A stretch of 64,000 bases of DNA. It comes from an uncultured Acidobacteriaceae bacterium (GTDB lineage Bacteria > Acidobacteriota > Terriglobia > Terriglobales > Acidobacteriaceae). The stretch spans positions 419,949-483,948 of the forward strand of contig CAVYLL010000004.1 in the NCBI GenBank assembly GCA_963769345.1, read 5' to 3'. Positions 38,655 through 60,214 of this stretch are shown here, piece by piece (the stretch's first letter is position 1; the number at the start of each line of letters is the position of its first letter). The notes beneath the pieces were generated by a model. That model was not told where the DNA came from and did not search any database. It saw only the letters and a program-made list of their open reading frames with translations. The position numbers were made by a program, and so were the translations under genes.

Positions 38655-38793
38655 ATTCTTCTTTACAACCGAGGCTTATACTGTCTAAGGCGTCGAGAGC
38701 GGCGATTTGCCTTCACGCCCGAATGTCCAGGTATTTCCGGCGCGGCCTGCGCGACAGGCGCAGCCGCCCGAGTTCGATCAGGAGAGATTTACG

Positions 38794-39828: not shown

Positions 39829-39872
39829 GTATTCACTGCACTGTTATCCTCTGACATACACTAGCAAGAAAT

Positions 39873-39906
39873 CGGGTGCCCCAGGTCTCGCTTTTGAGAC
39901 CTGGGA
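39873..39906 (+). repeat. REP-like hairpin, family 2 (GGTGCCCCA head)
   Basis: CGGGTGC-CCCAGGTCTC-GCTTTT-GAGACCTGGG, a perfect 10-bp stem. Same head and architecture as 44436 and 44731. Confidence 0.75.
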
Positions 39907-39999
39907 TTCTCTACGATATCAGTGGAATGAATTGCGTCGCGATTTGCATCGCGGGGCTCAGAGACGGATGCTGCCTGAACTGATGCAGGACAGCGGCTG

Positions 40000-40461: not shown

Positions 40462-40479
40462 CCGTGACGGATTAACGAT

Positions 40480-40652
40480 GGCGATGCCTCCCGTTTCCTG
40501 TCCGGATGCTGCTCTTAGGAGAGAAATCGCCAAAGGGCGCTGCCTCCGAAGATGCAACGCCCGGCGTGCCCGTTGAAAAAATTGAAATGCATTGATGATG
40601 GTTCCCGTCGGGGACCCAAGTATCATCGCGTCAAGGAGGGAGACCGCATCTC
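40480..40652. ncRNA. Candidate 6S-like structured RNA (long imperfect hairpin with central bubble); strand unresolved
   Basis: Ends pair (GATGC-CTCCC with GGGAG-acc-GCATC). Inner helix GATGCTGC..TTAGG with CCCAA-GTATCATC. Apical stem GGGCG...CGCCC is closed by a C-UUCG-G loop on the minus strand. Length is about 173 nt. Structure was read by eye only. Confidence 0.45.
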
Positions 40653-40741
40653 TTCTTCAAAGGGAGACGGGCTATGTCGTCAACTCCGCTAACCGGCCGC
40701 ACAGCGGCCGCTAACTCCGCTGGCTCCGCTCTTCCTTCCTC

Positions 40742-41194
40742 ATGACCTATCGCCTCTTCGAGCGCAACGACTTCGACGACCTCTACGCCATCGAAGAGGT
40801 CTGTTTCCAGCCACCGCAACGGTTCAGCCGCCGCTACATGCGCCATCTCGTCGCCTCACCCGATGCCGCGACGTGGATAGCTGAACAGGATGCTCGAATG
40901 GCCGGCTTCGCCATCGTCGAATGGACTCAGCAGGTCACGGGGGTCATTGCCTACATCGCCACCATCGAAGTGCTGCCCCAGCACCGCGGTCGTCGCATCG
41001 GCGCCGAACTCCTCCGCCGCATCGAAGGCTCGGCCAATGCCGAACGCGCAATCCAGGTGTGGCTTCACGTCGACATGGAAAATGGCGCCGCTATCCGCCT
41101 CTATGAGAGCTCCGGCTATCAAAACTCCGGACGAGCTGACCACTATTACGCCCGCAACCGCCCCGCTGCAATCTATGTGAAAAGCCTCGTTTAA
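40742..41194 (+). CDS. GNAT acetyltransferase (RimI-like)
   Basis: YIATIEVLPQHRGRRIG, WLHVDMENGAAIRLYESSGY. Confidence 0.85.
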   Translation: MTYRLFERNDFDDLYAIEEVCFQPPQRFSRRYMRHLVASPDAATWIAEQDARMAGFAIVEWTQQVTGVIAYIATIEVLPQHRGRRIGAELLRRIEGSANAERAIQVWLHVDMENGAAIRLYESSGYQNSGRADHYYARNRPAAIYVKSLV

Positions 41195-41287
41195 CCCTCG
41201 CCCTCGTCTGAGCATTACCGCCGGCTCTACCGTCCCGCAATTCGCCGATCCCCAACTGAAGATCCGCATAAAATAGAGTTAGCAATC

Positions 41288-42964
41288 ATGTCCATCAGCA
41301 ATCCCAATCTGCCCAAGCTGGTCGTGTCTCTGCGCCAGTACAACCGGCAGATGTTCCTGCACGATCTTCTCGCCGGCATCACGGTTGGCCTGGTCGCACT
41401 GCCTCTCGCCATGGCCTTTGGCATTGCCTCTGGTGTGACCCCACAGGCCGGACTCTACACCGCTGTCGTCGCTGGTTTCCTCATCTCCGCCCTCGGCGGT
41501 TCCCGCACCCAGATCGGCGGCCCCACCGGCGCATTCGTTGTTATCGTCGCCGGCATCGTCGTCCGCTTTGGCCTGCCCGGCCTCGCCATGGTCACTCTCA
41601 TGGCCGGAATCATCCTGCTCGCCATGGGACTAACCGGCCTCGGATCAGCGGTGCGCTTCATCCCGCGGCCCGTCGTCATCGGATTCACCAACGGCATCGC
41701 GATCCTTATCGCCTCCACGCAGATCAAGGACTTCTTCGGCCTTCACGTTGGCGCCGTTCCCAGCGAATTCCTGCCCAGAATGAAGCTTCTGATCGGCCAC
41801 ATGCCCAGCCTCAACTGGCAGGCGCTCGCGATCGGCCTGACGACGCTTGCCATCATGCTCATCCTGCCGCGCTTCACCAAACGCGTTCCTGCGTCCATCG
41901 TCGCGTTGCTTGCATGCACCGTGGCATGCGCCCTGTTTCATCTGCCAGTCGAAACCATCGGTACACGCTTCGGCGGAATCCCCCGCGGGCTTCCGCCATT
42001 CGCCATTCCCGACTTCCACGCTGAGCACATTCTGCCGCTCATTCCGTCGGCCTTTACCGTGGCTTTGTTGGCAGCCCTCGAGAGCATGCTCTCCGCTGTC
42101 GTAGCCGATAGCATGACCGGCGATCGCCACAACCCCAACGTCGAATTGGTCGCGCAGGGAATCGCCAACATCACCTCACCGCTATTTGGCGGCATCCCTG
42201 CTACCGGAGCCATCGCCCGCACCGCTACCAACATCCGCTCCGGAGCGCGCTCCCCCGTCTCCGGCATCGTGCACGCGCTCACTCTGCTGCTCATTTTGCT
42301 CGTGGCTGCACCGCTGGCCGGCTACATTCCGCTGGCCACGCTCGCCGCTGTTCTGTTTGTCGTCGCCTACAACATGGGCGAGTGGCGAGAAATCGGCGGA
42401 ATCCTCCAACTCGGGTTTACGGCCATCTCCGTCTGGCTTGTCACGTTCGCACTCACCGTCTTCGCGGATCTCACGGTCGCCGTCAGCGTCGGCATGGCGT
42501 TGGCCGCGCTGGTTTACATCTACCGCATTGCCGAGACCACCACAGTAACCCCCGTGACCGACGAATACATCCGCGACGGTTTGTCTCACTCGCTCCAGGG
42601 ACGCATCATTCCGTCCTACGTCACGCTTCTCCGGATCCACGGGCCGTTCCTGTTCGGCACAACCGAGAAGCTGGTCGAGGCCACCAGCAACGTTGAGGTC
42701 TTTGAGCCGGTCGTCATTCTGCGCCTGCGTAACATGACGGCCATCGATGCCACCGGCATCCACGCCATCGAATCATTCGCAAAGCGCCTCACCGAATCCG
42801 GCCGCACACTCCTGCTCTGCGGAGCGATGGAGCAACCATCGAAACTTCTTCAGCAACCGCGTTTTCTCGATCACGTTGGCCGCGAAAACATCATGCCCAA
42901 CATCCAGATCGCCCTCGATCGCGCTAAAGAAATCCACGAAAGCCGCGCCGTCCTGGCCAGTTGA
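41288..42964 (+). CDS. SulP-family anion permease with STAS domain
   Basis: DLLAGITVGLVALPLAMAF, QIGGPTGAF, GAIARTATN, GPFLFG, IDATG. Confidence 0.93.
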   Translation: MSISNPNLPKLVVSLRQYNRQMFLHDLLAGITVGLVALPLAMAFGIASGVTPQAGLYTAVVAGFLISALGGSRTQIGGPTGAFVVIVAGIVVRFGLPGLAMVTLMAGIILLAMGLTGLGSAVRFIPRPVVIGFTNGIAILIASTQIKDFFGLHVGAVPSEFLPRMKLLIGHMPSLNWQALAIGLTTLAIMLILPRFTKRVPASIVALLACTVACALFHLPVETIGTRFGGIPRGLPPFAIPDFHAEHILPLIPSAFTVALLAALESMLSAVVADSMTGDRHNPNVELVAQGIANITSPLFGGIPATGAIARTATNIRSGARSPVSGIVHALTLLLILLVAAPLAGYIPLATLAAVLFVVAYNMGEWREIGGILQLGFTAISVWLVTFALTVFADLTVAVSVGMALAALVYIYRIAETTTVTPVTDEYIRDGLSHSLQGRIIPSYVTLLRIHGPFLFGTTEKLVEATSNVEVFEPVVILRLRNMTAIDATGIHAIESFAKRLTESGRTLLLCGAMEQPSKLLQQPRFLDHVGRENIMPNIQIALDRAKEIHESRAVLAS

Positions 42965-43115
42965 AACGGCACTATCCAAAAATTGAAAATAGCCGCGGTG
43001 AAGTCTCGAGATCGGGCGTCGAAGAATTGTCGCGGAGGGGTCGGCGGCTTCAGGCCGCTGAAAGATGGCACCATGAACCCGGCCTTTACACTAGTTGGAA
43101 GGGAGGGACCTCGTA

Positions 43116-43244
43116 ATGAGCGACGGACGCGAAGAGCGCGAGGAATGCGAAAAACGCCGCGAGCAGGAAGAGCGGGAAGACAGGGAAGATCGCATCAATC
43201 GCGAACTTCGAGACCAATGGAAGCCCGAGCGCCGCGAGTCCTGA
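43116..43244 (+). CDS. Small 42-aa Glu/Arg-rich protein (not in the ORF track)
   Basis: GGAGGG Shine-Dalgarno about 8 nt upstream of ATG; MSDGREEREECEKRREQEEREDREDRINRELRDQWKPERRES. Confidence 0.55.
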   Translation: MSDGREEREECEKRREQEEREDREDRINRELRDQWKPERRES

Positions 43245-43251
43245 ATCCGAC

Positions 43252-43848
43252 CTACCGCACCGTTTCGAACTTCTCCCACGGGTAATTACACGCCGGGCAG
43301 TTCTCGCCTTCGGCAGTTTGTGCAGCATATCCGCAAAGCGTGCACACAAAGAAGTCGTGCGGTTCATACGCCCAGCCTGACTTGACGGCGGCATTCACCA
43401 GCGGCATAACATCGTCGTACAAGCGCACATGAGACTTGTCGGCTTCAAGAGCCCAGTGAAAACTTCGAGCCGCCGTCGAATCAAACAGCGGAACCGCAGC
43501 TGTAAGAAAAGTGGGATAGAGATAGTCCACTTCGAACTTCTGATCGACGAGAGCCGCGTTCAAATTCTCCAGCGTGCTCTCCACGCGCGGCATTGGCACA
43601 TCGATCATTGTCGAGCCGCCCATATGTCTTAACAGGCGTGCATGATTGCTGGCATGAATCTGTTCGGCCCGTGCCGTCGCGCGAAATAGGCTCGCAATCC
43701 CGCGGTAACCCTCTTCTTCAGCCCTCACAGCGTATGCCTTGTTAGCCGCAATCGTCTTCGTCTCTTCTTCAAAGGCGGTCTCAAGGTTTCGGATCACCGT
43801 AAGATCCTCAACCCCGATCCCGTGAGCGATCATGCGATCCGTTGCCAT
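43252..43848 (-). CDS. Rubrerythrin-family protein with C-terminal rubredoxin domain and atypical diiron ligands
   Basis: NLETAFEEE, AEEEGY, AEQIH, DQKFE, ADKSH, CTLCGY...CPAC. Confidence 0.85.
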   Translation of the reverse strand: MATDRMIAHGIGVEDLTVIRNLETAFEEETKTIAANKAYAVRAEEEGYRGIASLFRATARAEQIHASNHARLLRHMGGSTMIDVPMPRVESTLENLNAALVDQKFEVDYLYPTFLTAAVPLFDSTAARSFHWALEADKSHVRLYDDVMPLVNAAVKSGWAYEPHDFFVCTLCGYAAQTAEGENCPACNYPWEKFETVR

Positions 43849-43894
43849 ATCCCAAAACTTCCCTCACTCCGTTAGATGCACGACGGAGCGTTCA

Positions 43895-43910
43895 GGTGAT
43901 GCCGATCACA
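43895..43910. promoter_or_regulatory. GTGA-N6-TCAC operator upstream of rubrerythrin
   Basis: GGTGA-tgccga-TCACA, about 47 nt upstream of the ATG. Confidence 0.6.
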
Positions 43911-44034
43911 TGTAATTGTCGAAAGTGCTGAAACCAGAATGGCGAAATCGGCTCCCTGAAAGCCGTTATTGAACCTGTTTCTATCTATCGGATACGTTCA
44001 AACCGCTCCCAAAACGAAGTTGCACTCCGGGCAG

Positions 44035-48504: not shown

Positions 48505-49143
48505 TCACGGAATCCCCACAATCTTGTGCGTCTGCAGACTCAGCCGCCACTTCGGATGTTCCATGCAATACCGCACCGCCATCTCCGTATTGACCGCACG
48601 ATTCGGTCCATCCATCGGCTGCAGGAAAAAATTTCGGAATTCCAACCCCTCGAACTCCGGCGGCTGCGCATTCGCCTGCGGAAACACAAGCTTCAGTTCA
48701 TCGCCTGTCTTCTGCACCAGCCGCGACCCCGCCTTGGGACTTACGCACACCCAGTCAATCCCCGTCGGAGCTTCCACAGTCCCGTTCGTCTCCACCGCAA
48801 TCTCAAAATCGTGTTCGTGCAGCACGTCGATCAGCGTCCGATCCAGTTGCAGCAGGGGCTCGCCCCCGGTGCACACCACAAACCGCCTGCCATCCGTTCC
48901 ACGCCCGGGCCATTTCCCGGTAATCACCGCTGCCAGATCGTCCGCTGTCTCGAATCTGCCTCCACCCTCCCCGTCTACGCCCACAAATTGCGTGTCGCAA
49001 AACCGGCAAATCGCCGACGCCCGATCGCTCTCGCGTCCCGACCACAAATTGCATCCCGCAAATCGGCAGAACACCGCCGCGCGCCCTGCCTGCGCACCTT
49101 CGCCCTGCAGCGTATAGAAAATCTCTTTGACCGCGTAGCTCAT
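48505..49143 (-). CDS. queE: 7-carboxy-7-deazaguanine synthase, Cx14CxxC variant
   Basis: [50 protein letters not shown]. Confidence 0.93.
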
Positions 49144-49865
49144 CGCGTTGCCTTTACATCGGGATAGGGCAGGGGATCGTCAATCCCGTTCTCCCGAAAA
49201 CCCTTTCTTCTCAGGAAACACGAGTCGCATTGCCCGCATGGCTCCCCATCCGGCGCGGGGTCGTAGCAGCTGCTCGTCAGGCTGTAGTCAACGCCCAGTT
49301 CCATCCCTCTCTTGATGATCTGCGCCTTCGTCATTTGCATCAGCGGCGCATGGATCACCAGCTTCTGCCGTCCCTCCACCCCTGCCTTCGTCGCCAGGTT
49401 CGCCATCGTCTCAAATGCACGAATAAACTCCGGCCGGCAATCCGGATACCCGCTGTAATCGAGTGCATTCACGCCGATAAACACATCGCTCGCCCCAAGT
49501 ACCTCGGCCCATGCCAGCGCAAACGAAAGAAAGATCGTATTCCGCGCCGGCACATAGGTCACCGGAATTCCGTGCTCCATCTCAGTGCTGTCTCGCCCCT
49601 TCGGCACATCGATATCATCCGTCAGCGCCGATCCGCCGAACACCCGCAAATCAATCGTCGCGACACGATGCCGTGCCACCCCCAGCGACGCCGCGACCCG
49701 CCGCGCAGCCTCAAGCTCGAAACTATGCCGCTGTCCATACGCAAACGACAGGGCGCACACGTCGAAGCCCGCGCTTAGCGCGATCGCCGCCACTGTCGCC
49801 GAGTCCAATCCGCCGCTCAACAGTACTACCGCCGTTTTTTTCGGTTCAGAAGAAACAATCTCCAT
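49140..49865 (-). CDS. queC: 7-cyano-7-deazaguanine synthase
   Basis: [30 protein letters not shown]...CGQCDSC. Confidence 0.95.
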
Positions 49866-50027
49866 CGATGTTCAAGCGACCCCAGCAATCAGAATAAACA
49901 ACCAGCGGACCATTCTGAGAGCCGCTACCTCGCCGTGCCGCTCTTTGCGATCCCGTCCTCGATCAACCGGGTACAGGCTATGAGCTACCAGCCTCACGCC
50001 TTAGAATGATTCTTCGCGCATCTTGCA

Positions 50028-51017
50028 ATGAAGATCTTCCTTACAGGCGCCACCGGATTTGTCGGACATCACGTGGCCAAAGCCCTGGCCGACCAGGGTG
50101 CGGACCTCCGCCTCCTCGTCCGCAAATCCAGCAAGCTGTCCAACCTCGAAGGAATCGCAGGAGATACCGTCGTGGGCGACCTCGCCCGGCCCGACTCCTA
50201 TGCCCCCGCGCTCCAGGGTTGCGATGCCGTCTTGCATGTTGCTGCCGACTACCGCCTCTGGATTCGCGATCCCGATGCGATGTACCGCGCCAACGTCGAC
50301 GGGACTCGAGATTTGTTAAAGCTCGCCCGCGAAGCGCGCGTCCACCGCGTGGTCTACACCTCCAGCGTTGCCACCATGGCCTTCCGCACCGATGGAATCG
50401 TCGTCAACGAAGACACACCCGTGACGATCGACGACATGGTCGGCCACTACAAGCGCTCCAAGTTTCTCGCCGAGCAGCAGGCCATCGCCGCCGCCCAGGA
50501 TGGCCAGCAGGTCATCATCCTCAACCCCACCACTCCAATAGGCCCTAACGACGCCAAGCCCACGCCCACCGGCCGAATCTTCGTCGACTTTCTCAATCGC
50601 AAATTCCCGGCCTACGTCGACACCGGCCTCAACCTCGTCGACGTCGCAGAGGTTGCGCGTACCCACGTCGCCGCACTTGAAGTAGGCAAGCCCGGTCGCC
50701 GTTACATCCTCGGCGGCGAAAACCTCACCCTCAAGCAGATCCTCGACAAGATGTCGGCCATCACCGGCATCCCCTCGCCGAAAACAGAGATTCCTTTTGC
50801 CATCGCCGCCACCTACGCCTTTTTCGAGGAATGGATTACCGGCCGCATCCGAGGCAAAGAACCCCGCGCAACACTAGAAGAAGTCCGGATGGGTCGCAAG
50901 AAGATGTACGCCTCCAGCGCCCGCGCCCAGCAGGAACTCGGCTTCCGCATCGTCCCCGTCTATCCCGCCATGCGCGCCGCCATAGACTGGTTCCGCGCCA
51001 ACGGCTACGCCCCATGA
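50028..51017 (+). CDS. hpnA: Hopanoid-associated sugar epimerase/reductase
   Basis: TGATGFVG, HVAADYRLW, YKRSK, NPTTPIGPNDAKPTPTG; heads the hpn operon. Confidence 0.9.
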   Translation: MKIFLTGATGFVGHHVAKALADQGADLRLLVRKSSKLSNLEGIAGDTVVGDLARPDSYAPALQGCDAVLHVAADYRLWIRDPDAMYRANVDGTRDLLKLAREARVHRVVYTSSVATMAFRTDGIVVNEDTPVTIDDMVGHYKRSKFLAEQQAIAAAQDGQQVIILNPTTPIGPNDAKPTPTGRIFVDFLNRKFPAYVDTGLNLVDVAEVARTHVAALEVGKPGRRYILGGENLTLKQILDKMSAITGIPSPKTEIPFAIAATYAFFEEWITGRIRGKEPRATLEEVRMGRKKMYASSARAQQELGFRIVPVYPAMRAAIDWFRANGYAP

Positions 51018-51691
51018 CCCGAGTCGCCATCATCGCCGCCATGCCCGGCGAACTCAAACCCCTCGTCCGCAACTGGCCGCACTCCACCCGTGGCACCATT
51101 CACTTCTGGGCCCAGCGCACTGAAGAAGAAGAATGGATCGCCGCCTGCGCCGGAGCCGGCCTCGACGCTGCCACGCGTGCCTTCGCGGGAATCGAAGACG
51201 GCGGCCCCATTGACCTCGTCATCTCCATCGGCTGGGCCGGCGCCCTCACCCCCGACATCGCCGCAGGCAGCGCCCACAACTGCGCCGGCGTGATCGACGC
51301 CCGCACCGGCGAGCGATTCAATTGCGATGCCGGCGCCGGCAAGCTGTGGCTGGCAACCAGCCCCAAAGTCGCCGACGAGCCTGAAAAGCTCCGCCTCGCC
51401 TCCACCTATAAAACCGCCCTCGTCGACATGGAAGCCGCCGCTATCGCCCGGCTAGCCGCCATGCGCAGCATCCCCTTCTACGCAATCAAAGGTGTCAGCG
51501 ACCCACTCGACGCTAAACTGCCCGATTTCAACCGCTTTATCGCCCCAGACGGCCAGTTCCAGACCCCGAAGTTTGTTCTTTTTGCTCTCCTTAGACCCTG
51601 GATATGGCCCACACTCGTCAAAATGGGCGAAAATAGTAGAAAGGCTTCCCAAAGCATTGCGGAGCGGCTCCACGAACTTCTGGATGAGTGA
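51014..51691 (+). CDS. Nucleoside phosphorylase family protein, HpnG-like
   Basis: IIAAMPGEL, SIGWAGAL, VDMEAAA, IKGVSD; ATGA overlap with hpnA. The HpnG label rests on context. Confidence 0.75.
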   Translation: MTRVAIIAAMPGELKPLVRNWPHSTRGTIHFWAQRTEEEEWIAACAGAGLDAATRAFAGIEDGGPIDLVISIGWAGALTPDIAAGSAHNCAGVIDARTGERFNCDAGAGKLWLATSPKVADEPEKLRLASTYKTALVDMEAAAIARLAAMRSIPFYAIKGVSDPLDAKLPDFNRFIAPDGQFQTPKFVLFALLRPWIWPTLVKMGENSRKASQSIAERLHELLDE

Positions 51692-51707
51692 GGTCACATC
51701 GACACGG

Positions 51708-52839
51708 ATGGCTACCCAAACCACCAACGCTCAAAGTCATATCGCCACCCGGATTCCCACCACCATGCGCGCCGTAGTCTATCGCGGCATTAACGACATG
51801 CGGGTCGAGACCGTTCCTGTACCCACCATCGGCCCAGGCGAACTCTTGGTCAAGGTCGCCACTTGCGGTATCTGCGGAACCGACCTGAAAAAGATCCACA
51901 CCGGCTCTCACTCCGCCCCCCGTATCTTCGGACACGAAATGTCCGGCACCATCGTCGGTGTCGGCGAGGGAGTAACTCGCTTCCAGGGCGGCGAACGGGT
52001 CGTCGTTCATCACCACGTCCCCTGCGGCGAGTGCTTCTATTGCCGCAAAGGCACCCCCGCCCAATGCCCCCTCTATAAAAAAGTCGGCGTTACGGCCGGC
52101 TTCGAACCGTCCGGCGGCGGCTTCGCGGAGTATATTCGCGTGATGGACTGGGTCGCCTCGAGTTGTGGTGTCGTTCCCATCCCCGACGGCATCCCATTCG
52201 AGCAGGCCGCATTCCTCGAGCCAGTCAACACCGTGCTCAAGGGTGTGAAGATGCTCAACCTCGCCTCCGACGATACGGTTCTCGTAATCGGTCAGGGCCC
52301 CATTGGCCTCATGCACGCCGTGCTCGCCAGCCGTACGGGCGCCCGCGTGCTCACTTCCGATCTCTATCCCGAGCGCCATGCCATCGCCGCCAAATACGGC
52401 CTCAAAGATCCCATCCACGCGGGCAGCGAAAATGTCGTCGAACGCGTCCTTTCAGAGACCGAGGGCCGCGGAGCCGATGCCGTCATCCTCGCCGTGGGCG
52501 GCAACGCCCTCATCCAGACTGCGATGGATGCTGCGCGCTGCGGTGGCAACGTCATGCTTTTTGCCCAGACCCAGCGCGGCGAAGCAACTTTTGATCCCGG
52601 AGTGGTTTGTATGGACGAGAAGACCCTGATGGGGTCCTATTCGTCTTCGTTCGACCTTCTCGACGAAGTCACAGACCTGGTCTTCAAGCGGGTACCGCAA
52701 CGGATTTGACCTGACTCAACTCATCTCGCATCGTTTTCCGCTCGACCAGGCCGTTGCGGCAATCGATGTAGCTTCGCACCCCAAAGCCGACTCGATGAAG
52801 ATTATGATTGAGCCCGTCTCCGGTGCAGGAGCAAAGTAA
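51708..52839 (+). CDS. Zn-dependent medium-chain dehydrogenase 1; frameshift ~52690
   Basis: CGICGTD, FGHEMSG, structural Zn CGECFYC...C, FLEPV, GQGPIG. The C-terminus GFDLTQLISHRFPL...KIMIEP is in a shifted frame and ends at TAA 52837-52839. Confidence 0.88.
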
Positions 52840-54068
52840 TGCCAAACCCGGTAAAACGCGGCCGCCCGACGGTCGAGGACGTCCTCCAGGTCGGCCGAAG
52901 TACCGTCGGAGATGTGCTTCAGATCGGCCGCAATACCGTCGAGGAAGTCCTCCACGTTGGCAGGAGCACCGTTGAGGAGGTCATTCAGGTCGGCCGCAAT
53001 ACCGTCGAGTCCGCTCGCCAGCTCCGCCAGGGAACCATGCAGGCCGCAGTCCTCCACGGCCGCCAGGATATTCGGATTGAAGATGTCCCGGTCCCCCGGG
53101 CAGGCCACGGCGAGCTGATCGTCCGCGTCGGCGCTGCCCTCACGTGCGGAACAGACCTGAAAGTCTTTCGCCGCGGTTACCATGCCCGCATGATCGTCCC
53201 TCCAGCCCTCTTCGGCCACGAGCTGGCAGGAACCGTCGTTGAGGCAGGCGAGGGCGTTGAAGGCTTCGCTAACGGCAGCCGCGTGGTGGCCCTGAATTCC
53301 GCCCCCTGCGGCCAGTGCTACTTCTGCAAGCGCGGGCAGGAAAATCTCTGCGACGACCTGCTCTTCAACAACGGCGCCTATGCCGAATTCATTCGCATCC
53401 CCGCCCGCATCGTCTCCAAGAACACGCTTATTGTTCCCGACCATGTTCCGCTTGAGAACGCCGCACTCACCGAACCCCTCGCTTGCGCCGTCCATGGCTT
53501 TCTTGATTCCAACCCGCATCCTGAGGACACGATCGCAGTAATCGGGGGTGGCCCTTTGGGCCTGATGATGGTCCACGTCGCCGCTCTTTCCGGTTGCAAC
53601 GTCATTTCAATCGTCAAGCACGACGGCCAGGTGATAGCTGCGAAACAGTTGGGGGCAGCTCACGTGATCAAGTCTTCGTCGATTCAGAAAGCCATCCGCG
53701 AAACTCGCGCTCTCACGCCCAATAATCGCGGCGTCGACATCGCCATCGAAGCCGTCGGCGTTCCCGAGGCTTGGGAAGAAGCCGTCGAGATGGTGCGCAA
53801 AGGCGGCACCGTCAACTTCTTCGGCGGATGCGCCGTCGGCACCCATGTCACGCTCGACACCAATCGCATCCACTACAGCGACATCACCCTGCGCGCAACG
53901 TTTCACCATACGCCTGCAATCTGCCGCAAAGCCCTCGACCTCATTGCCAGCGGCCGATTTCAGGCAGGCGCATTCATCACCGGCCACGCTCACCTCTACG
54001 AACTCAATCGCGTCTTTGAGAAGCTGATGAACCGCAGCAGCGAAATCAAAACCGCCATCGTTCCGTGA
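52839..54068 (+). CDS. Zn-dependent medium-chain dehydrogenase 2 with an N-terminal 11-residue repeat extension
   Basis: TCGTD, FGHELAG, CGQCYFC...C, LTEPLAC, GGGPLG; TAATG coupling to the previous gene. Confidence 0.9.
   Translation: MPNPVKRGRPTVEDVLQVGRSTVGDVLQIGRNTVEEVLHVGRSTVEEVIQVGRNTVESARQLRQGTMQAAVLHGRQDIRIEDVPVPRAGHGELIVRVGAALTCGTDLKVFRRGYHARMIVPPALFGHELAGTVVEAGEGVEGFANGSRVVALNSAPCGQCYFCKRGQENLCDDLLFNNGAYAEFIRIPARIVSKNTLIVPDHVPLENAALTEPLACAVHGFLDSNPHPEDTIAVIGGGPLGLMMVHVAALSGCNVISIVKHDGQVIAAKQLGAAHVIKSSSIQKAIRETRALTPNNRGVDIAIEAVGVPEAWEEAVEMVRKGGTVNFFGGCAVGTHVTLDTNRIHYSDITLRATFHHTPAICRKALDLIASGRFQAGAFITGHAHLYELNRVFEKLMNRSSEIKTAIVP
52860..53024 (+). repeat. Five in-frame 33-bp coding repeats
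   Basis: GRPTVEDVLQV / GRSTVGDVLQI / GRNTVEEVLHV / GRSTVEEVIQV / GRNTVESARQL, with many synonymous differences between units. Confidence 0.92.
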
Positions 54069-54128
54069 AGAAGCCGATGCTGACAAGCGCTCAATCTGCC
54101 CATGCCGAATGCCCCAATTTGTATTGGT

Positions 54129-54201
54129 TTTGAAAGGGCACGACTTTAGTCTTGCCGAAAATGCTGCGATGATAGGAAGGAAGGGCTTTAGCCCTGAGGG
54201 A
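54129..54201 (+). repeat. Family-1 two-hairpin element, copy C, directly before hpnC
   Basis: TTTGAAAGGGCACGACTTTAGTCTTGCCG...GGGCTTTAGCCCTGAGGGA. Confidence 0.88.
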
Positions 54202-54204
54202 ACT

Positions 54205-55201
54205 GTGGCGCAATCACAACAAACAGCCGACGCAGAATCAGAACAACAGGCCCTCCTCGCCCTCGCCTGGTCAGCCCTCCCGGCCAGCTATCGCATTCCC
54301 GACAAGGCTCCCACGCTCCAAGAAGCCCGTGCCTGGTGCAAGCACCTCGCCGAAACTCACTACGAAAACTTCCACGTAGCCTCATGGTTCTTGCCTGAAG
54401 CGCTCCGGCCCCACTTCCACGCCATCTACGCCTACTGCCGCGTTTCCGACGATCTCGGCGACGAAGTCGGCGATGCCGCGCAATCTCTGGCCCTTCTCGA
54501 CCTCTGGGGTCACGAACTCGACGCCTGCTATGAAGGCCGCGCGCGTCATCCCGTATTCGTCGCACTCGCTGAAACTATTCGCGCCTGCAATATTCCCAAA
54601 GAGCCATTCGCCGATCTCCTGACCGCATTCCGTCAGGACCAGGCCGTCACGCGCTACGCGAACATGCAAGACGTTCTCGGCTACTGCCGCTACTCCGCGA
54701 ACCCAGTTGGCCGTCTCGTCCTCTACATCTGTGGGTATCGAGACGAAGAGCGCTTCCGCCTCTCTGACGCAACCTGTTCCGCCCTGCAACTCGCCAACTT
54801 CTGGCAGGACGTCCGCGTCGACTTCGTCAAGGACCGCGTCTACATTCCGCAAGACGACATGCAGCGATTCGGCGTCACCGACTGCAATCATCCAGCAGGG
54901 AATTGCGACCCCGGAGTTCCGCGCACTCCTGAAACATGAAGTCGATTTCGCGCGCGGCCTATTTCTTGAGGGCCTGCCGCTCATCAGCATGGTCAACCGC
55001 GATCTCGCCCTCGATCTTGATCTCTTCAGTCGCGGGGGCCTCGAAATCCTCAATGCCATCGAGCGCGAGGATTATGATGTGCTGCGTGCCCGCCCGGCCA
55101 TCTCAAAACGCACCAAGCTGAGCCTGGCACTGCGCGCGGTGAGCGGAAAGTTCCTTCCGTTTCTGCGTCTCGGGGCGGGATCAAAAGGGCAAGCGGCTTG
55201 A
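54205..55201 (+). CDS. hpnC: Squalene synthase HpnC; frameshift ~54890
   Basis: HYENFHVAS, YAYCRVSDDLGDE, YCRYSANPVGRLVL, LQLANFWQDV, DRVYIP, LDLDLFSRGG. Confidence 0.93.
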
Positions 55202-56109
55202 CGCAATCGATCACACTGGACTCGGCGTACGCAACTTGCAGGGCCATCGCCAAACGGGAAGCCAAGAATTTCTACTACGCCTTCGTCGCTCTTCCTGAGC
55301 CGCGCCGCAACGCCATCTGCGCCATCTACGCCTTCATGCGCAAGGCCGACGACCTCTCCGATGATGAGAGCATTTCGCGCGAACAGCGTCTCCAGAATCT
55401 CGAGCAGTGGCAGACAGCCTGGCGCAGTGCCTCGCAAACCGGCACGACGCAAGATCCCGTCTTCATCGCCGTCCGCGATGCGACGCAGCGCTTCAACATT
55501 CCTCTCAGCCTTCTTGACGAACTCATCGCTGGCACGACATCTGATTTGAAAGCGAAGCCGGGAGACGCTCCCGACACCTACGCAACCTTCGCCGACCTCT
55601 ACCAATATTGTTACCTCGTCGCGTCCGTCGTCGGCCTCGTCTGCATCCGCATCTTCGGCTACACCGATCCCGCCGCCGAAAAGCTCGCCGAAGAAACCGG
55701 CGTAGCCTTCCAATTAACCAACATCCTGCGCGACGTAGCCGAAGACGCCGAGCGCGGCCGGGTTTATCTGCCTCTGGAAGACCTCGCTGCCCATAACGTC
55801 ACGCTCGATTCCATCCTGCATCGCAAGCAAGGGGCACCTCCATCCGCGAACGAGCGCGCCCTGCTAGCTGAGATCGGAGCGCGCGCAGAAGCCTATTACG
55901 CCTCCGCCGGCAAACTGCTGCCACTCATCGATCGCGAGAGCCGGCCCGCGCTCTGGGTATTGGTAAGGATTTACTGCGGATTGCTTAGACGGATTCGCCG
56001 CGCTGACTACGACGTTTTTTCGCATCGCATCAGCGTCCCAACCTTCCAGAAACTCGAAATCCTGGCAGTCGGAATGGTTCGGCTAACCGTCGCACGAATC
56101 TCCCGTTAG
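55198..56109 (+). CDS. hpnD: Presqualene diphosphate synthase HpnD
   Basis: NFYYAF, YAFMRKADDLSD, YCYLVASVVG, FQLTNILRDV, GRVYLP. Confidence 0.93.
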   Translation: MTQSITLDSAYATCRAIAKREAKNFYYAFVALPEPRRNAICAIYAFMRKADDLSDDESISREQRLQNLEQWQTAWRSASQTGTTQDPVFIAVRDATQRFNIPLSLLDELIAGTTSDLKAKPGDAPDTYATFADLYQYCYLVASVVGLVCIRIFGYTDPAAEKLAEETGVAFQLTNILRDVAEDAERGRVYLPLEDLAAHNVTLDSILHRKQGAPPSANERALLAEIGARAEAYYASAGKLLPLIDRESRPALWVLVRIYCGLLRRIRRADYDVFSHRISVPTFQKLEILAVGMVRLTVARISR

Positions 56110-56164
56110 GTCTTGTCGATTAAAAAGTGATAAGCGTGAATTGGCTGACCAGGGTTTCCGGCGT

Positions 56165-56232
56165 TGTGAAAGGGCACGACTTCAGTCGTGCCGAAAAGCG
56201 CCAAATTAGAATTGGGCTTTAGCCCCTGAGGA
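56165..56232 (+). repeat. Family-1 two-hairpin element, copy D, directly before hpnE
   Basis: GTGAAAGGGCACGACTTCAGTCGTGCCG...GGGCTTTAGCCCCTGAGGA. Confidence 0.88.
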
Positions 56233-56237
56233 AATGC

Positions 56238-57661
56238 TTGCCGGAACGATCGCAACAACTCGCACAACGCACCGTCACCGTCATCGGCGGCGGCGTAGCC
56301 GGCATGAGCGCTGCTTGCGCCCTCGCCGAAGCCGGACTACCGCGTGCAACTCGTCGAGCGCCGCGGCTATCTCGGCGGTCGCGCTTCCTCCTATCTGCAT
56401 CCGGGTGTCAACGAAGTCATCGACAACTGCCAGCACGTTCTCTTCGGCTGCTGCACAAATCTCATCGGCTTCTACAATCGCATCGGTGTCGAAAAGAAAA
56501 TTCACTGGACCAGCGAGATGACCATGATCGAGCCCGGCGGCAAGCGCTCGAAACTCGGTCCTTCGCCGCTGCCCGCACCGCTCCATGGTCTCCCGAAACT
56601 TCTTTCCGCCCACGCCTTCACCCGCGCCGACAAGTTCGCCCTCGCGCGCGCCTTTCGCGCCATGATGCGTCCCATCCAGGACGACCAACGAATCGCTCTC
56701 CGCGTGGCTCCGTCGCAATAAGCAGACCCCCGGCGCCATCGAGCGCTTCTGGCGCCTCGTCATCGCCAGCGCCCTCAATGCCGACCTCGACGCCATCGCC
56801 GTTCCGTATGCCGCCAAGGTTATCCGCGAACTCTTCATGAACTCCGCCGAAGCTGGCGCTATGGGCATGAGCTCGGTCCCCCTCAGCGAACTTTACGCGA
56901 TCGGCAAAATCATTCCTCGACGAGACACGGCTCGACCGTCCACCTCAACACCAACGTCGAATCGGCACGAGTGGGACGAGGAGATCTCCCAATGGACCAT
57001 CAGCACGCGCATCGGCACCCTCGTCTCTGAATTCCTCGTCATCGCGTTGCCCTTCGAAGCCACTGCAGAAACTGTTGCCGCATCTCCCGCCTGCCCCGCG
57101 CGGCAGAAGAACTCGCGCGCCAGATCGACCGATTCGAGCACTGGCCCATCTGCAGCGTGCATCTCTGGTTCGATCGCGAAATCACCGATCTCCCGCACGC
57201 CGTCCTTCTCGACCGCGAAATCCACTGGATGTACAACAAGAGCGTTCTGCAGCCATGGCGCAAAACCAAAGGCAGCTACCTCGAACTCGTCCAGTCCGCG
57301 TCGCGCAGCTTCGCAGCCCTCGAACGACGCGAAGCGATCGATCAGGCCCTGAGCGAACTCGCAGAATTCTTTCCCACAATAAGAGAAGCCAAGCTCGAAA
57401 AAGCCGCGCTTATCAAAGAAGTCCGCGCCACCTTCGGCGTCCCACCCGGCATCGACACCCTCAGGCCCCCCTCAGCATCCGCCATGGCCCAACTGCTTCC
57501 TCGCCGGTGACTGGATCTCCACCGGCTGGCCATCGACCATGGAGAGCGCCGCCCGCTCCGGCCATCTCGCTGCCGACGCTCTCTGCGCCAGCAAGATCGA
57601 AGACCGCCGCTTCCTCGAGCCCGACCTGAAGCCCCGGGGGCTTATGCGATGGCTCAAGTAA
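56238..57661 (+). CDS. hpnE: Hydroxysqualene dehydroxylase HpnE; several frameshifts
   Basis: VIGGGVAG, LGGRASS, IDNCQHVLFGCCTN, PICSVHLWFDR, LAGDWISTGWPSTMESAARSG. Confidence 0.9.
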
Positions 57662-57782
57662 CAATCACTTCGACTTAGGAAGTTTTGTTTGGTCTTCGAA
57701 GACATGAGCCCAAGCGAGCAGCCCAAGCATCCGGTGACTGTTCGATGCAATCCGCTTCAGGCTGAACATACGGAGCTAGCAG

Positions 57783-58202
57783 CTAGAAGCTTCTCTTAAT
57801 GCGCCAGAAAATAAACACCCACGCACACCAGCACTGCCGAAGCCCACCGCCGCCCGTCCACATTCTCATGCAGAAAAACTTCCCGGCAATCGCATTCGTT
57901 ACCAGCGTCAGCGAAGCGGAGGCCGGAGCCACCAGGCTAAGATTCAGATGATTCAGCGCAAACAGTAACGCGAAAAACGCCAGCGCCAGAAAGAAAACGC
58001 CCGCGAAAAATAGCGGGCATGTCACCACCGCGCGGATCGCACCCTTCATTCCCGATTTCGCGCGAATATCATCCAGATCGCCAATCGACTTCATCGCCGC
58101 CGCCGTCAGCACCTCGCCTGCAGTCGAAGTCAGCACGATCGTGGCGATCATGCCGGCCGCAGCCCACACCCCCGATGCGGAACCAGGCGCAATCATCGCA
58201 CA
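57783..58202 (-). CDS. Small EamA/DMT-type membrane transporter
   Basis: Four hydrophobic helices; LSLVAPASASLT; paired with the upstream paralogue. Confidence 0.7.
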   Translation of the reverse strand, partial: CAMIAPGSASGVWAAAGMIATIVLTSTAGEVLTAAAMKSIGDLDDIRAKSGMKGAIRAVVTCPLFFAGVFFLALAFFALLFALNHLNLSLVAPASASLTLVTNAIAGKFFCMRMWTGGGGLRQCWCAWVFIFWRIKRSF

Positions 58203-58735: not shown

Positions 58736-60214
58736 TTACGCGCCTGCGCTCACAGCCGCAGTCGGTTTCGCCGGCTGACTGCGTTTTTGCTTGACCGCCT
58801 TGTTGCGCTCTGCACGAAGCTTCATGAACGCCTTCGCCTCAACGTAAAGCCGCGGCACATCGCGATTCACAATCGCCTTCCACACCACGCGGAACGCCGC
58901 CTTCGGACGGAAATAGTACTCGTCGTAGAAGCGGTGCACCATCTCCATCACGTAGTCGACCGGCAGGCCGGGATACTCGATGTGCGCCATCTGGTGTCCG
59001 CCGCCGTCTTCCATCTTCTCGTTGGTGATGAAGCCGTTGGCCTTGGCGTAATCGTAGAACTCCGTGCCCGGATACGCGTGCGCGATCGAAACCTGGATCG
59101 TCTCGCAGTCCAGCGTCTTGGCAAAGTTGATCGTGTTGCGGATCGATTCCTTCGTCTCGCCCGGCAGCCCCAGAATAAAGTCGCCGTGAATCACGAGGCC
59201 CAGGTCGTGGCAGTCCTTCGCAAAGGCCCGCGCACGCTCAACCGTCGCGCCCTTCTTGATGTTCTTCAGAATCTGCGGATCGCCCGACTCAAATCCCACG
59301 ATCAGCAGCCGGCATCCGGCATCCTTCATCGCCTTCAGCGTGTCGTAGTCCGTTGTCACGCGCGAAGTGCAGCTCCACGTCATCCCCAGCGGCTTCAGCT
59401 TCTCGCAGAGTTCAATCGTCCGCCCCTTCTGAATGTTGAACGTGTCATCGTCGAAGAAGAATTCCTTCACATGCGGGAAGTTCTCATGCGCCCACTTCAA
59501 CTCCGCAGCCACGTCATCGGTCGAGCGCTTGCGCCACGCATGTCCGCTCAGCGTCTGCGGCCACAGGCAGAAGGTGCACTGCGCCGGGCAGCCGCGCGTC
59601 GAGTAGAGCGCGATATACGGATGCAGCAGGAACGGCACGTTGTACTTCGTCACGTCCATGTCGCGCTTGTAGATCTTCGTCGCCCACGGCATCGCGTCCA
59701 GATCTTCCACCTGCGGACGATCGGGATTGTGGAAGATCTTTCCATCCTTCTTGTAGCTGATTCCGAGAATCTCGTTCAGCGGCTTGCCCTGGGCAAACTC
59801 CACAACCGAGAAGTCGAATTCGCGCCGGCAAATGAAATCCAGCACTGCGCACTCATTCAGCGCGCTATCCGGATCAGTCGTCACCGGCGGCCCAACAAAC
59901 GCAATCCGGATCGAAGGATTCGCCGCCTTGATGGCTTCGGCCAGACGCTGGTCGCCCTCCCATCCCACCGTCGAGGTGAACAGGACAAGGAACTCGTAGT
60001 CCTTGCAGATCTTGATCGTCTCGTCGGCCGACACGTGATGTGGCGGCGCATCCAGCACGCGCGATCCTTCCAGCAGACCTGCAGGATAGGTGAGCCAGAC
60101 AGGGTACCAGTACGATTCGATTTCGCGCGTAGCGGGCCAGCGCGAACTTGCGCCACCGTCGAAATTTTCAAACGAAGGCGGGTTCAGAAAGAGTGTTTTC
60201 AAAGGCATAGGCAT
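58736..60214 (-). CDS. hpnJ: Hopanoid biosynthesis-associated radical SAM protein HpnJ
   Basis: LFLNPPSFENFDGGASSRWPATREI, YWYPVWL, RGCPAQCTFCLWPQT, FFDDDTF. Confidence 0.9.
   Translation of the reverse strand: MPMPLKTLFLNPPSFENFDGGASSRWPATREIESYWYPVWLTYPAGLLEGSRVLDAPPHHVSADETIKICKDYEFLVLFTSTVGWEGDQRLAEAIKAANPSIRIAFVGPPVTTDPDSALNECAVLDFICRREFDFSVVEFAQGKPLNEILGISYKKDGKIFHNPDRPQVEDLDAMPWATKIYKRDMDVTKYNVPFLLHPYIALYSTRGCPAQCTFCLWPQTLSGHAWRKRSTDDVAAELKWAHENFPHVKEFFFDDDTFNIQKGRTIELCEKLKPLGMTWSCTSRVTTDYDTLKAMKDAGCRLLIVGFESGDPQILKNIKKGATVERARAFAKDCHDLGLVIHGDFILGLPGETKESIRNTINFAKTLDCETIQVSIAHAYPGTEFYDYAKANGFITNEKMEDGGGHQMAHIEYPGLPVDYVMEMVHRFYDEYYFRPKAAFRVVWKAIVNRDVPRLYVEAKAFMKLRAERNKAVKQKRSQPAKPTAAVSAGA

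What the first reader, a model, noticed from the sequence alone, without database searches (positions are those of the whole stretch)
51014..54068. Two coupled Zn-dehydrogenases right after the HpnG-like phosphorylase: candidates for the unassigned hopanoid side-chain redox step
Seen: hpnA-(ATGA)-phosphorylase-dehydrogenase 1-(TAATG)-dehydrogenase 2-hpnC-hpnD-hpnE on one strand. Both enzymes keep the catalytic (CGTD, GHE) and structural (Cx2Cx2Cx7C) Zn ligands and resemble polyol dehydrogenases. Known: HpnH makes adenosylhopane and HpnG removes the adenine to give ribosylhopane; to my knowledge the oxidoreductases leading on to bacteriohopanetetrol-type side chains are not assigned, and medium-chain dehydrogenases are not part of the named hpnA-R set. 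Inference: this pair reduces or epimerises the C5 side chain, or makes a sugar or cyclitol head-group precursor used with HpnJ.
Basis: partly seen in the sequence, partly recalled or inferred. Interest (0 to 1): 0.7.

Follow-up and report, generated by a model that had tools for sequence, protein, structure and literature searches.

The report
Paired zinc dehydrogenases in hopanoid operon
Two related zinc-dependent dehydrogenase genes sit inside the hopanoid-lipid gene cluster of this soil acidobacterium; the pairing was published in 2017 as unknown genes "ug1/ug2", and they remain plausible but unproven candidates for the still unassigned redox step that finishes the hopanoid side chain.

Summary
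The gene order hpnA, HpnG-like phosphorylase, dehydrogenase 1 (DH1), dehydrogenase 2 (DH2), hpnC, hpnD, hpnE is real, and so are all the zinc ligands. Three points were missed. DH1, hpnC and hpnE are frame-broken in this long-read assembly, while near-identical intact copies exist in other soil data. DH2 has a 66-residue N-terminal extension of 11-residue repeats. The pair is already published as ug1/ug2 of acidobacterial hopanoid clusters (Sinninghe Damsté 2017), function "not established".

New here:
- DH1 and DH2 are anciently duplicated sister paralogs inherited together across Acidobacteriota.
- DH1 is NAD-type in 32 of 32 sequences. DH2 is NADP-type in 32 of 37.
- In 301 sampled genomes, 44 of 50 pair-holders have shc or hpnH.
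- Where the cluster splits, DH1 stays with shc-hpnH-hpnA-hpnG and DH2 stays with hpnCDE.

Against the reading:
- Several lineages without shc or hpnH keep hpnA-DH1-DH2.
- 13 hopanoid-positive genomes lack the pair.
- Relatives in other phyla show no hpn linkage.

Verdict: this is a real hopanoid-cluster redox module whose substrate is unproven. Its role as ribosylhopane reductase is possible, at about 0.2. The feature is already known; interest is moderate.

The parts
50028..51017 (+). hpnA (hopanoid-associated SDR 'sugar epimerase')
   Evidence: TIGR03466 462 bits, cut-off 368. Its stop overlaps the next start as ATGA.
51014..51691 (+). HpnG-like nucleoside phosphorylase/nucleosidase
   Evidence: PF01048. 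TIGR03468 88 bits against a cut-off of 187. It is the only HpnG-like hit in the genome, and none of the 20 acidobacterial genomes tested reaches the cut-off.
51711..52709 (+). DH1 (= ug1), first 332 codons, NAD-type Zn-MDR
   Evidence: ADH_N + ADH_zinc_N. All zinc ligands present. Asp at the end of strand beta-2.
52693..52839 (+). DH1 C-terminal ~48 codons, read in the next frame; the frame breaks near 52,690 in this assembly
   Evidence: Three-frame translation. The piece is contiguous and in frame in relatives. Contigs from three soil runs differ by one letter at the break. Its TAA stop shares one base with the DH2 ATG.
52839..53036 (+). DH2 N-terminal extension: five 11-residue repeats (TVEDVLQVGRx), predicted amphipathic helix
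   Evidence: Tandem Repeats Finder: 33-bp unit, 4.2 copies, 52872-53009. In frame in about 57 of 78 related loci. Hydrophobic moment 0.42-0.48 at 98-100 degrees per residue, z = 4-5. AlphaFold2 gives a helix at residues 12-71 with low confidence.
53037..54068 (+). DH2 (= ug2) catalytic core, NADP-type Zn-MDR
   Evidence: ADH_N + ADH_zinc_N. All zinc ligands present. V-K-H at the end of strand beta-2. 85-98% identical in the 80 related loci.
54130..54200 (.). REP-like hairpin element in the gap between DH2 and hpnC
   Evidence: GGCACGACTTTAGTCTTGCC at 54137-54156. Depth spikes and cross-joints to 56214 in metagenome contigs.
54109..55201 (+). hpnC (true start probably after the hairpin); frame break near 54,885
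   Evidence: TIGR03464 278 bits, cut-off 250. The C-terminus reads in another frame. DNA and RNA contigs show a one-letter difference there.
55198..56109 (+). hpnD
   Evidence: TIGR03465 240 bits, cut-off 279.
56238..57661 (+). hpnE, with at least eight frame breaks in this assembly
   Evidence: Three-frame translation. One-letter differences against metagenome contigs.
58736..60214 (-). hpnJ (radical SAM), convergent with the operon
   Evidence: TIGR03471 757 bits, cut-off 578.

Best explanation
DH1 and DH2 are ug1 and ug2. They are an anciently duplicated, co-inherited pair of catalytically intact zinc dehydrogenases of the polyol/threonine-dehydrogenase type, one built for NAD and one for NADP. 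In Terriglobia and some other Acidobacteriota they are operon members of the hopanoid cluster, always with the SDR HpnA.

Most likely (inferred) they form a two-step redox module working at the membrane surface on the ribose-derived C5 polyol side chain of C35 hopanoids. DH2 would use NADPH to reduce a carbonyl: the open-chain ribosylhopane aldehyde, or a keto form, towards bacteriohopanetetrol. DH1 would use NAD+ to oxidise a side-chain hydroxyl, for example ribosylhopane to the lactone 'ribonylhopane', or a C-33/C-34 hydroxyl for epimerisation. In this genus DH2 would be held at the lipid surface by its N-terminal amphipathic 11-mer-repeat helix.

Shown here: gene order, intact active sites, cofactor signatures, co-inheritance, co-occurrence with shc and hpnH, and expression in soil. 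Inferred: the substrate, the direction of each step, and membrane binding. Rough odds: functionally part of the hopanoid/squalene lipid pathway 0.65; acting on the C35 side chain 0.35; being the ribosylhopane-to-BHT reductase 0.2.
For: - The order hpnA-PNP-DH1-DH2-hpnC-D-E is seen in the 80 Terracidiphilus-type loci, in 10 genera of the family, and in families f2, f4, f13 and f44, often with ispH-shc-hpnH directly upstream.
- Where the cluster is split (genus g5), DH1 stays in shc-hpnH-hpnA-PNP-DH1 and DH2 heads DH2-hpnC-D-E.
- The tree shows the DH1 and DH2 clades as sisters with mirrored sub-topology.
- In 301 phylum genomes, 44 have both the pair and shc/hpnH, 6 have the pair only, 13 have shc/hpnH only and 238 have neither. 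The odds ratio is about 134.
- All eight zinc ligands are conserved in 32 of 32 DH1. In DH2, seven are invariant in 37 of 37 and the second Glu is E in 35 and D in 2. DH1 has D/E at the end of strand beta-2 in 32 of 32. DH2 has G/V/A followed by K/R and R/H in 32 of 37.
- ATGA and TAATG overlaps link the genes, and there is no + strand terminator between hpnA and hpnE.
- Metatranscriptome contigs cover the hpnA/PNP junction, DH1, the end of the repeat together with the DH2 core, and hpnC.
- The amphipathic extension is under peptide-level conservation.
- The enzyme for ribosylhopane to BHT is still unassigned (PMC12583986). The lactone 'ribonylhopane' has been reported in R. palustris mutants (PMC4263297).
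Against: - The pair, with hpnA and usually hpnD and the phosphorylase, is retained intact in lineages lacking shc and hpnH. These are genus g180 (three genomes), G311, G063, G210, and also G059, G291 and G143.
- 13 of 57 hopanoid-positive Acidobacteriota lack the pair.
- hpn clusters of Alphaproteobacteria hold no such candidate (PMC12583986).
- DH2-family genes at 44-50% identity in Chloroflexota, a gammaproteobacterial MAG and a rumen MAG have no hpn neighbours, and 3 of 7 of those genomes have no shc.
- The nearest characterised enzymes act on secondary alcohols of small soluble substrates.
- Five DH2 sequences have an NAD-type Asp.
- The co-occurrence counts are not phylogenetically independent.
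- No biochemical data exist.
Confidence: 0.4

Rival explanations
1. The trio HpnA-DH1-DH2 works at the squalene or isoprenoid stage, or on another lipid made with the HpnD-type synthase, and not on the hopanoid C5 side chain. Examples would be redox handling of hydroxysqualene or farnesyl-derived alcohols and aldehydes, or a different squalene-derived product.
For: The tightest conserved unit is hpnA-DH1-DH2(-hpnD). It persists in genomes with no cyclase and no hpnH. When the cluster splits, DH2 stays with hpnC-D-E. The 2017 paper also noted that ug2 is 'somehow associated with hpnC, hpnD, hpnE'.
Against: HpnC, D and E alone suffice for squalene synthesis (Pan et al. 2015, as summarised in PMC5462960). 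In split clusters DH1 follows hpnH-hpnA-hpnG, not the squalene genes. The hpnD family is far more widespread (109 of 301 genomes) than the pair. Families f70 and f26 have the pair and shc but no HpnD-type hit. Polyol-type MDRs are not known to act on such hydrophobic allylic substrates.
Confidence: 0.2
2. The pair acts on a soluble sugar, polyol or amino alcohol and is only co-regulated with hopanoid genes. One possibility is disposal or recycling of ribose or 5-deoxyribose released by the nucleosidase from adenosyl by-products of radical-SAM chemistry. Another is synthesis of a head-group precursor.
For: The best matches are threonine, sorbitol, ketose, xylitol and galactitol-1-phosphate dehydrogenases and IolM. 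The wider DH2 family occurs alone or as a pair in varied non-hpn contexts in several phyla. One ortholog lies beside genes that look, from their N-terminal sequences alone (no family search was run), like methionine-salvage genes. The pair is retained without shc or hpnH.
Against: No recurrent transporter, kinase or catabolic neighbour was found. Co-occurrence with shc/hpnH is strong even where the pair is not syntenic (families f50, f7, f70, f26). The amphipathic N-terminal helix in Terracidiphilus points to a membrane-surface site. Both halves stay hpn-linked after the cluster splits.
Confidence: 0.2
3. In this particular genome DH1, and also hpnC and hpnE, are real pseudogenes, so the local cluster is decaying and the pair is non-functional here.
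For: There are at least 12 one-letter frame-breaking differences in 50000-58000 but only 2 in the control stretch 36000-44000. They are not in long homopolymers.
Against: Every frame-breaking difference, in DH1, hpnC and hpnE, goes the same way (the window has one extra letter); the only opposite ones are two letters put in within the phosphorylase in one run. There are no in-frame stops and no excess of substitutions. Near-identical DNA and RNA contigs from several soils carry the open frames. The genome is a 10-contig long-read-style MAG, and the region shows strain heterogeneity. DH2, hpnA, the phosphorylase, hpnD and hpnJ are intact.
Confidence: 0.1
4. There is no functional link. The paralog pair is a neighbour inherited by descent within Acidobacteriota.
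For: Both traits are clade-restricted, so the co-occurrence is partly phylogenetic. Outside the phylum no hpn linkage was seen.
Against: Same-strand gene order with overlapping or short junctions is preserved across families in more than one class. Each half keeps an hpn partner independently after cluster splits.
Confidence: 0.1

Closest known systems
ug1 and ug2 of acidobacterial hopanoid gene clusters (Sinninghe Damsté et al. 2017, Front Microbiol 8:968, PMC5462960)
   Same: The arrangement is identical: cluster C is hpnA-hpnG-ug1 (Zn-dependent ADH, about 370 aa) and cluster A is ug2 (Zn-binding ADH, about 350 aa)-hpnC-hpnD-hpnE. The two clusters are concatenated, with hpnJ, in Terracidiphilus gabretensis. 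Function is listed as 'Not established'.
   Different: That paper did not relate ug1 to ug2 and proposed HpnA, not the ADHs, for ribosylhopane to BHT. New here: the two are sister paralogs inherited as a pair, they carry NAD-type and NADP-type signatures, the pair is retained in shc-negative lineages, and DH2 has a long form with an amphipathic repeat.
Polyol / L-threonine 3-dehydrogenase branch of the zinc MDR superfamily (e.g. P. horikoshii TDH 2dfv, ketose reductase 1e3j, human sorbitol dehydrogenase 1pl6)
   Same: ADH_N + ADH_zinc_N domains, catalytic Cys-His-Glu(-Glu) ligands, a structural Cx2Cx2Cx7C zinc site, and GxGxxG.
   Different: Alignments are low-scoring (149 bits or less against solved structures). 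All NCBIfam equivalog scores are far below cut-off (175 against 458 for Tdh; 156 against 450 for IolM). The genes are operonic with lipid-pathway genes, and no kbl or sugar-catabolic partner was seen.
Two-enzyme NADPH/NAD+ 'polyol pathway' (aldose reductase plus sorbitol dehydrogenase) and the IolG/IolW-type oxidise-then-reduce epimerisation
   Same: An NADP-type and an NAD-type dehydrogenase are encoded together, so sequential reduction and oxidation of a polyol or sugar moiety is the natural working model.
   Different: This is an analogy only. Here both enzymes are MDRs, whereas aldose reductase is an aldo-keto reductase (own knowledge). The substrate is unknown, and five DH2 orthologs carry an NAD-type Asp.
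11-residue-repeat amphipathic helices of apolipoproteins, alpha-synuclein, perilipins and group-3 LEA proteins (own knowledge)
   Same: The period is 11, and the hydrophobic arc (V8, T1, V5, G9, V2, L6) faces a charged arc with Arg at the interface. A high hydrophobic moment is sustained over 55 or more residues.
   Different: There is no sequence homology. Here the repeat is fused to an enzyme, its copy number varies (0 or 4-6), and lipid binding is untested.

Membership tests
Zinc-dependent medium-chain dehydrogenase/reductase (MDR) superfamily | GroES-like ADH_N domain plus Rossmann ADH_zinc_N domain | tested here: met
   PF08240 and PF00107 lie above the gathering score in both proteins.
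Zinc-dependent medium-chain dehydrogenase/reductase (MDR) superfamily | Catalytic zinc ligands (Cys, His, Glu, second Glu) and four structural-zinc Cys | tested here: met
   Invariant in 32 of 32 DH1. In 37 DH2 seven ligands are invariant and the second Glu is E in 35 and D in 2.
L-threonine 3-dehydrogenase (TIGR00692 / NF003808) | Score at or above the curated equivalog cut-off | tested here: not met
   DH2 scores 175 bits and DH1 144 bits against a cut-off of 458.
scyllo-inosose 3-dehydrogenase IolM (NF041097) | Score at or above the curated cut-off | tested here: not met
   156 and 147 bits against a cut-off of 450.
Sorbitol / L-iditol 2-dehydrogenase (the JGI name for homologs) | Close similarity to characterised sorbitol dehydrogenases, with the same substrate-binding residues | tested here: inconclusive
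   Only 91-97 bits to human and sheep sorbitol dehydrogenase. Substrate-pocket residues were not compared because the AlphaFold2 model was too poor.
ug1/ug2 of acidobacterial hopanoid clusters | Zn-ADH of about 370 aa directly after hpnA-hpnG | tested here: met
   DH1 is about 375 codons when both frames are read, and starts 20 nt after the phosphorylase stop.
ug1/ug2 of acidobacterial hopanoid clusters | Zn-ADH of about 350 aa directly before hpnC-hpnD-hpnE | tested here: met
   The DH2 core is 343 aa (409 aa with the extension) and lies upstream of hpnC.
HpnG (TIGR03468), for the neighbouring phosphorylase | Score at or above the cut-off of 187 bits | tested here: not met
   88 bits. None of the 20 acidobacterial genomes tested reaches the cut-off, and this is the genome's only hit.
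Ribosylhopane reductase (BHT-forming) | NAD(P)H-dependent conversion of ribosylhopane to bacteriohopanetetrol | not testable with these tools
   No gene family is defined. The enzyme is not established (PMC12583986).
Ribosylhopane reductase (BHT-forming) | Present in all organisms that make BHT and absent where hpnH and hpnG are absent | tested here: not met
   13 of 57 hopanoid-positive genomes lack the pair. 6 of 50 pair-holders lack shc and hpnH.

The most novel reading that the evidence does not exclude
DH2 (NADPH type, tethered to the membrane by an amphipathic 11-mer-repeat helix in Terracidiphilus) is the long-sought enzyme that reduces ribosylhopane to bacteriohopanetetrol in Acidobacteriota. 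Its co-inherited paralog DH1 (NAD type) re-oxidises the side chain, to ribonylhopane or to a keto intermediate that is re-reduced to a BHT stereoisomer. Together with HpnA this would form a dedicated three-oxidoreductase side-chain tailoring module.
Probability: 0.2. Interest if true: 0.75.

Novelty: already known. Interest (0 to 1): 0.4.

Why it matters
Bacteriohopanepolyols are major membrane lipids and geological biomarkers, and the step from ribosylhopane to BHT is the last core step with no gene assigned. A lineage-specific, operon-encoded pair of dehydrogenases gives a directly testable candidate. It could also explain side-chain variants such as lactones or stereoisomers that are used as environmental proxies. 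If the pair instead acts on a non-hopanoid substrate, its retention with hpnA and hpnD in cyclase-free genomes would point to an unrecognised isoprenoid-linked pathway. It would also change how 'hopanoid-associated' HpnA is interpreted.

Tried and rejected
- Searching 5.8 billion proteins with DH2 returned only relatives at 86% identity or more, so it gave no distant context.
- AlphaFold2 on the 409-aa DH2 with a shallow 15-row alignment gave a poor model (pLDDT 51). No fold search or pocket analysis was attempted, and only the long N-terminal helix is mentioned, as weak support.
- Clustering the neighbours of the pairs that are not hpn-linked found no recurrent third gene.
- Look-ups of distant cluster representatives mostly hit short contigs.
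- An earlier scan note says the pair lies beside hopanoid or squalene genes in at least five phyla. This was not reproduced in the eight non-acidobacterial contexts sampled, but the sampling was far from exhaustive.
- Threonine dehydrogenase, IolM and sorbitol dehydrogenase identities were rejected on cut-offs.
- The 286-aa minus-strand ORF across the repeat (52716-53576) was dismissed as a high-GC shadow frame.
- The Bodlenner 2015 and Liu 2014 papers are not held in the library. That the cell-free activity depends on NADPH is from my own memory.

Full report
**Observation**

The + strand of 50,028-57,661 carries these genes:
- hpnA, 50028-51017 (TIGR03466, 462 bits, cut-off 368).
- A PNP_UDP_1 phosphorylase, 51014-51691, joined to hpnA by an ATGA overlap.
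- Two ADH_N + ADH_zinc_N proteins, DH1 and DH2.
- hpnC (TIGR03464, 278 bits, cut-off 250), hpnD and hpnE.

hpnJ lies convergent at 58736-60214. Shc, hpnH and ispH are on another contig of the same 5.69-Mb, 10-contig genome.

**Corrections to the observation**

- DH1 is not one open frame here. It reads 51711-52709, and its last ~48 codons continue in the next frame to a TAA that shares one base with the DH2 ATG at 52839. The TAATG coupling therefore exists only across that frame break.
- hpnC has one break, near 54,885. hpnE has at least eight.
- Contigs from four soil metagenomes and one metatranscriptome, 97-99% identical to the window, differ by one letter at these places and keep the frames open. 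In related loci DH1 is a single frame. Every frame-breaking difference goes the same way: the window has one extra letter.
- A control stretch, 36000-44000, has only two indel differences against at least 12 in 50000-58000, and the sites are not in long homopolymers. I read the breaks as consensus errors in a strain-heterogeneous region of a long-read MAG. The local excess is unexplained, and a real pseudogene state keeps about 0.1.
- The phosphorylase scores 88 bits against HpnG (cut-off 187). None of the 20 acidobacterial genomes tested reaches the cut-off either, and this is the genome's only HpnG-like gene.

**Prior art**

Sinninghe Damsté et al. 2017 (PMC5462960) describe cluster C as hpnA-hpnG-ug1 and cluster A as ug2-hpnC-hpnD-hpnE, concatenated with hpnJ in Terracidiphilus gabretensis. 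Their Table S1 lists ug1 as a 'Zn-dependent alcohol dehydrogenase (ca. 370 AA)' and ug2 as a 'Zn-binding alcohol dehydrogenase (ca. 350 AA)', both 'Not established'. They suggested HpnA for the ribosylhopane-to-BHT step. A 2025 review still calls that enzyme not established and found no candidate near alphaproteobacterial hpn clusters (PMC12583986). A 2026 review even draws the step as non-enzymatic (PMC13459092).

**Synteny**

The organism is a Terracidiphilus-type Acidobacteriaceae MAG.
- All 80 best related loci show hpnA-PNP-DH1-DH2-hpnC-hpnD-hpnE wherever the contig reaches that far.
- The order also holds in ten genera of the family and in families f2, f4 (one such locus, L156, is titled Bryobacterales) and f13, often preceded by ispH-shc-hpnH.
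- In family f44 the core is hpnA-DH1-DH2-hpnD, with shc adjacent in many genomes.
- In genus g5 the cluster is split. DH1 ends the operon shc-hpnH-hpnA-PNP-DH1, while DH2 heads DH2-hpnC-hpnD-hpnE hundreds of kilobases away. Each half therefore keeps an hpn partner on its own, which argues against simple hitch-hiking.

**Phylogeny**

DH1-type and DH2-type sequences form two sister clades, 32 and 37 sequences. Both show the same three-part sub-topology: [f62, f57, f70], [f26, f7, f88, f50] and [f44, f42, f2, f13, f4, f1]. The duplication is old, and the two genes have been inherited together as an adjacent pair, including in lineages where no hpn gene lies within about 9 kb.

**Co-occurrence**

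In an even sample of 301 Acidobacteriota genomes:
- 50 hold the pair family, defined as a DH2 score of about 190 bits or more, or membership of the tree clade.
- 57 hold shc or hpnH above cut-off.
- 44 hold both, 6 hold the pair only, 13 hold hopanoid genes only and 238 hold neither. The odds ratio is about 134. These counts are not phylogenetically independent.
- By family, 10 of the 12 pair-holding families contain hopanoid-positive genomes.

**Evidence against a strict hopanoid role**

- Six pair-holders lack shc and hpnH: G059, G291, G143, G280, G063 and G210. A Pfam cyclase search finds only a weak 95-bit hit in G210.
- A scan of 51 f44 genomes shows DH2 in 44 and shc in 44. All three genomes of genus g180, plus G311, G063 and G210, keep hpnA-DH1-DH2 without a cyclase; in g180 the module is followed by hpnD, and in two of its three genomes the contig also shows the nucleosidase. 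Terminal branches in these genomes are short for DH2 (0.07-0.12) and 0.24-0.33 for DH1, against 0.13-0.29 in shc-positive members of the family.
- Outside the phylum the DH2 family is large: 1,534 50%-cluster representatives at E<=1e-30.
- Eight non-acidobacterial contexts were sampled: three Ktedonobacterales, an Anaerolineae MAG, a gammaproteobacterial MAG, a rumen MAG, an unclassified bacterium and one metagenome contig. None has hpn neighbours. Four of the seven of these with a genome to search have shc.

**Enzyme features**

- All catalytic zinc ligands (Cys, His, Glu, Glu) and all four structural Cys are conserved in both clades.
- DH1 has Asp or Glu at the end of strand beta-2 in 32 of 32 sequences, the NAD-type signature.
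- DH2 has Gly, Val or Ala followed by Lys/Arg and Arg/His in 32 of 37, the NADP-type signature. The other five have Asp. Reading these signatures as cofactor preference rests on the established Rossmann-fold rule.
- The closest solved structures are P. horikoshii threonine dehydrogenase, 4ej6, 4cpd, whitefly ketose reductase and sorbitol dehydrogenases, at 90-150 bits.
- No NCBIfam equivalog comes near its cut-off.

**The DH2 extension**

- The 33-bp repeat encodes five copies of TVEDVLQVGRx.
- About 57 of 78 related loci carry 4-6 such units, always in frame with the core and with a conserved MPxxVK start. The rest have only MATT.
- The repeat peptides differ between species (TVETAIEHGRA, TVETVVEAGLN) yet keep the same pattern, so the extension is translated and under selection.
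- On an 11/3 helix the hydrophobic residues fall in one arc. The hydrophobic moment is 0.42-0.48 over 55 or more residues, z = 4-5 against shuffles.
- AlphaFold2 draws residues 12-71 as one helix, at low confidence.
- That this helix binds lipid surfaces is inferred by analogy with other 11-mer amphipathic repeats (own knowledge). If true, it fits a membrane-embedded substrate.

**Expression**

A soil metatranscriptome yields contigs over the hpnA/phosphorylase junction, DH1, the repeat end together with the DH2 core (52980-53449), and hpnC. No + strand terminator-like site lies between hpnA and the end of hpnE. REP-like hairpins do sit in the DH2-hpnC and hpnD-hpnE gaps.

**Reading**

The best-supported statement is that DH1 and DH2, with HpnA, form a redox module recruited into, and selected within, the hopanoid cluster. 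The most economical mechanism is sequential NADPH-dependent reduction and NAD+-dependent oxidation of the ribose-derived side chain: ribosylhopane to BHT, and ribosylhopane to the lactone, or epimerisation of a secondary hydroxyl. Lineage restriction and retention without a cyclase lower the specific 'missing BHT reductase' claim to about 0.2. They also keep alive a squalene-stage or other-lipid role (0.2) and a soluble-substrate role (0.2).

**Novelty and interest**

The feature is already in the literature. Other agents of this scan have reached similar conclusions in other genomes. I treated those notes as leads and re-derived each point here. Added here:
- the frame-break diagnosis;
- the mirrored paralog tree;
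- quantified co-occurrence;
- the split-cluster pattern;
- the f44 lineages without a cyclase;
- the amphipathic character of the DH2 extension.

Interest is moderate: it offers a concrete handle on an open step, but the step is unproven and the pair is clearly not universal.

Noticed in passing
window 50000-58000, against the control 36000-44000: One-letter frame-breaking differences against near-identical metagenome contigs are concentrated in the hpn cluster: DH1 has 1, hpnC 1 and hpnE at least 8, while 8 kb of control sequence has 2. Every frame-breaking one is an extra letter in the window, and the sites are not in long homopolymers. A consensus artefact is likely, but the local excess is unexplained.
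   Followed up: partly
window 52839-53036: The 33-bp tandem repeat encodes an 11-residue-repeat N-terminal extension of DH2. It is present with 4-6 units, or absent, among Terracidiphilus species, is always in frame, and is strongly amphipathic at 98-100 degrees per residue.
   Followed up: yes
window 7209-7228, 23601-23620, 23721-23740, 54137-54156, 56173-56192: A REP-like hairpin family, GGCACGACTTyAGTCGTGCC, often followed by GGGCTTTAGCCC. Two copies flank hpnC-hpnD. They cause large depth spikes and false joints in metagenome contigs, and they make the first ATG of the 'hpnC' ORF (54109) a doubtful start.
   Followed up: partly
window 57783-58196 (-): A 137-aa hydrophobic ORF lies between hpnE and hpnJ. 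It may be the 'ug5 transporter (ca. 140 AA)' of the 2017 paper's Table S1. It was not checked against any family.
   Followed up: no
loci L129, L163, L164 (genus g180), L162 (G311), L145 (G063): Acidobacteriota of family f44 with no squalene-hopene cyclase or hpnH still keep hpnA-DH1-DH2. In genus g180 hpnD follows, and two of its three contigs also show the HpnG-like nucleosidase. What this module makes without a cyclase is unknown.
   Followed up: partly
window 39873-39906: Very high summed contig depth (over 1,300) and many loose ends in metagenome runs. ARAGORN finds no tRNA there. It is probably another widespread short repeat.
   Followed up: partly
window 48505-49865 (-): The ORFs immediately upstream of hpnA on the opposite strand look, from their N-terminal motifs, like queE and queC. 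They are unrelated to the hpn operon and mark its upstream boundary here. Shc and hpnH lie on another contig.
   Followed up: no
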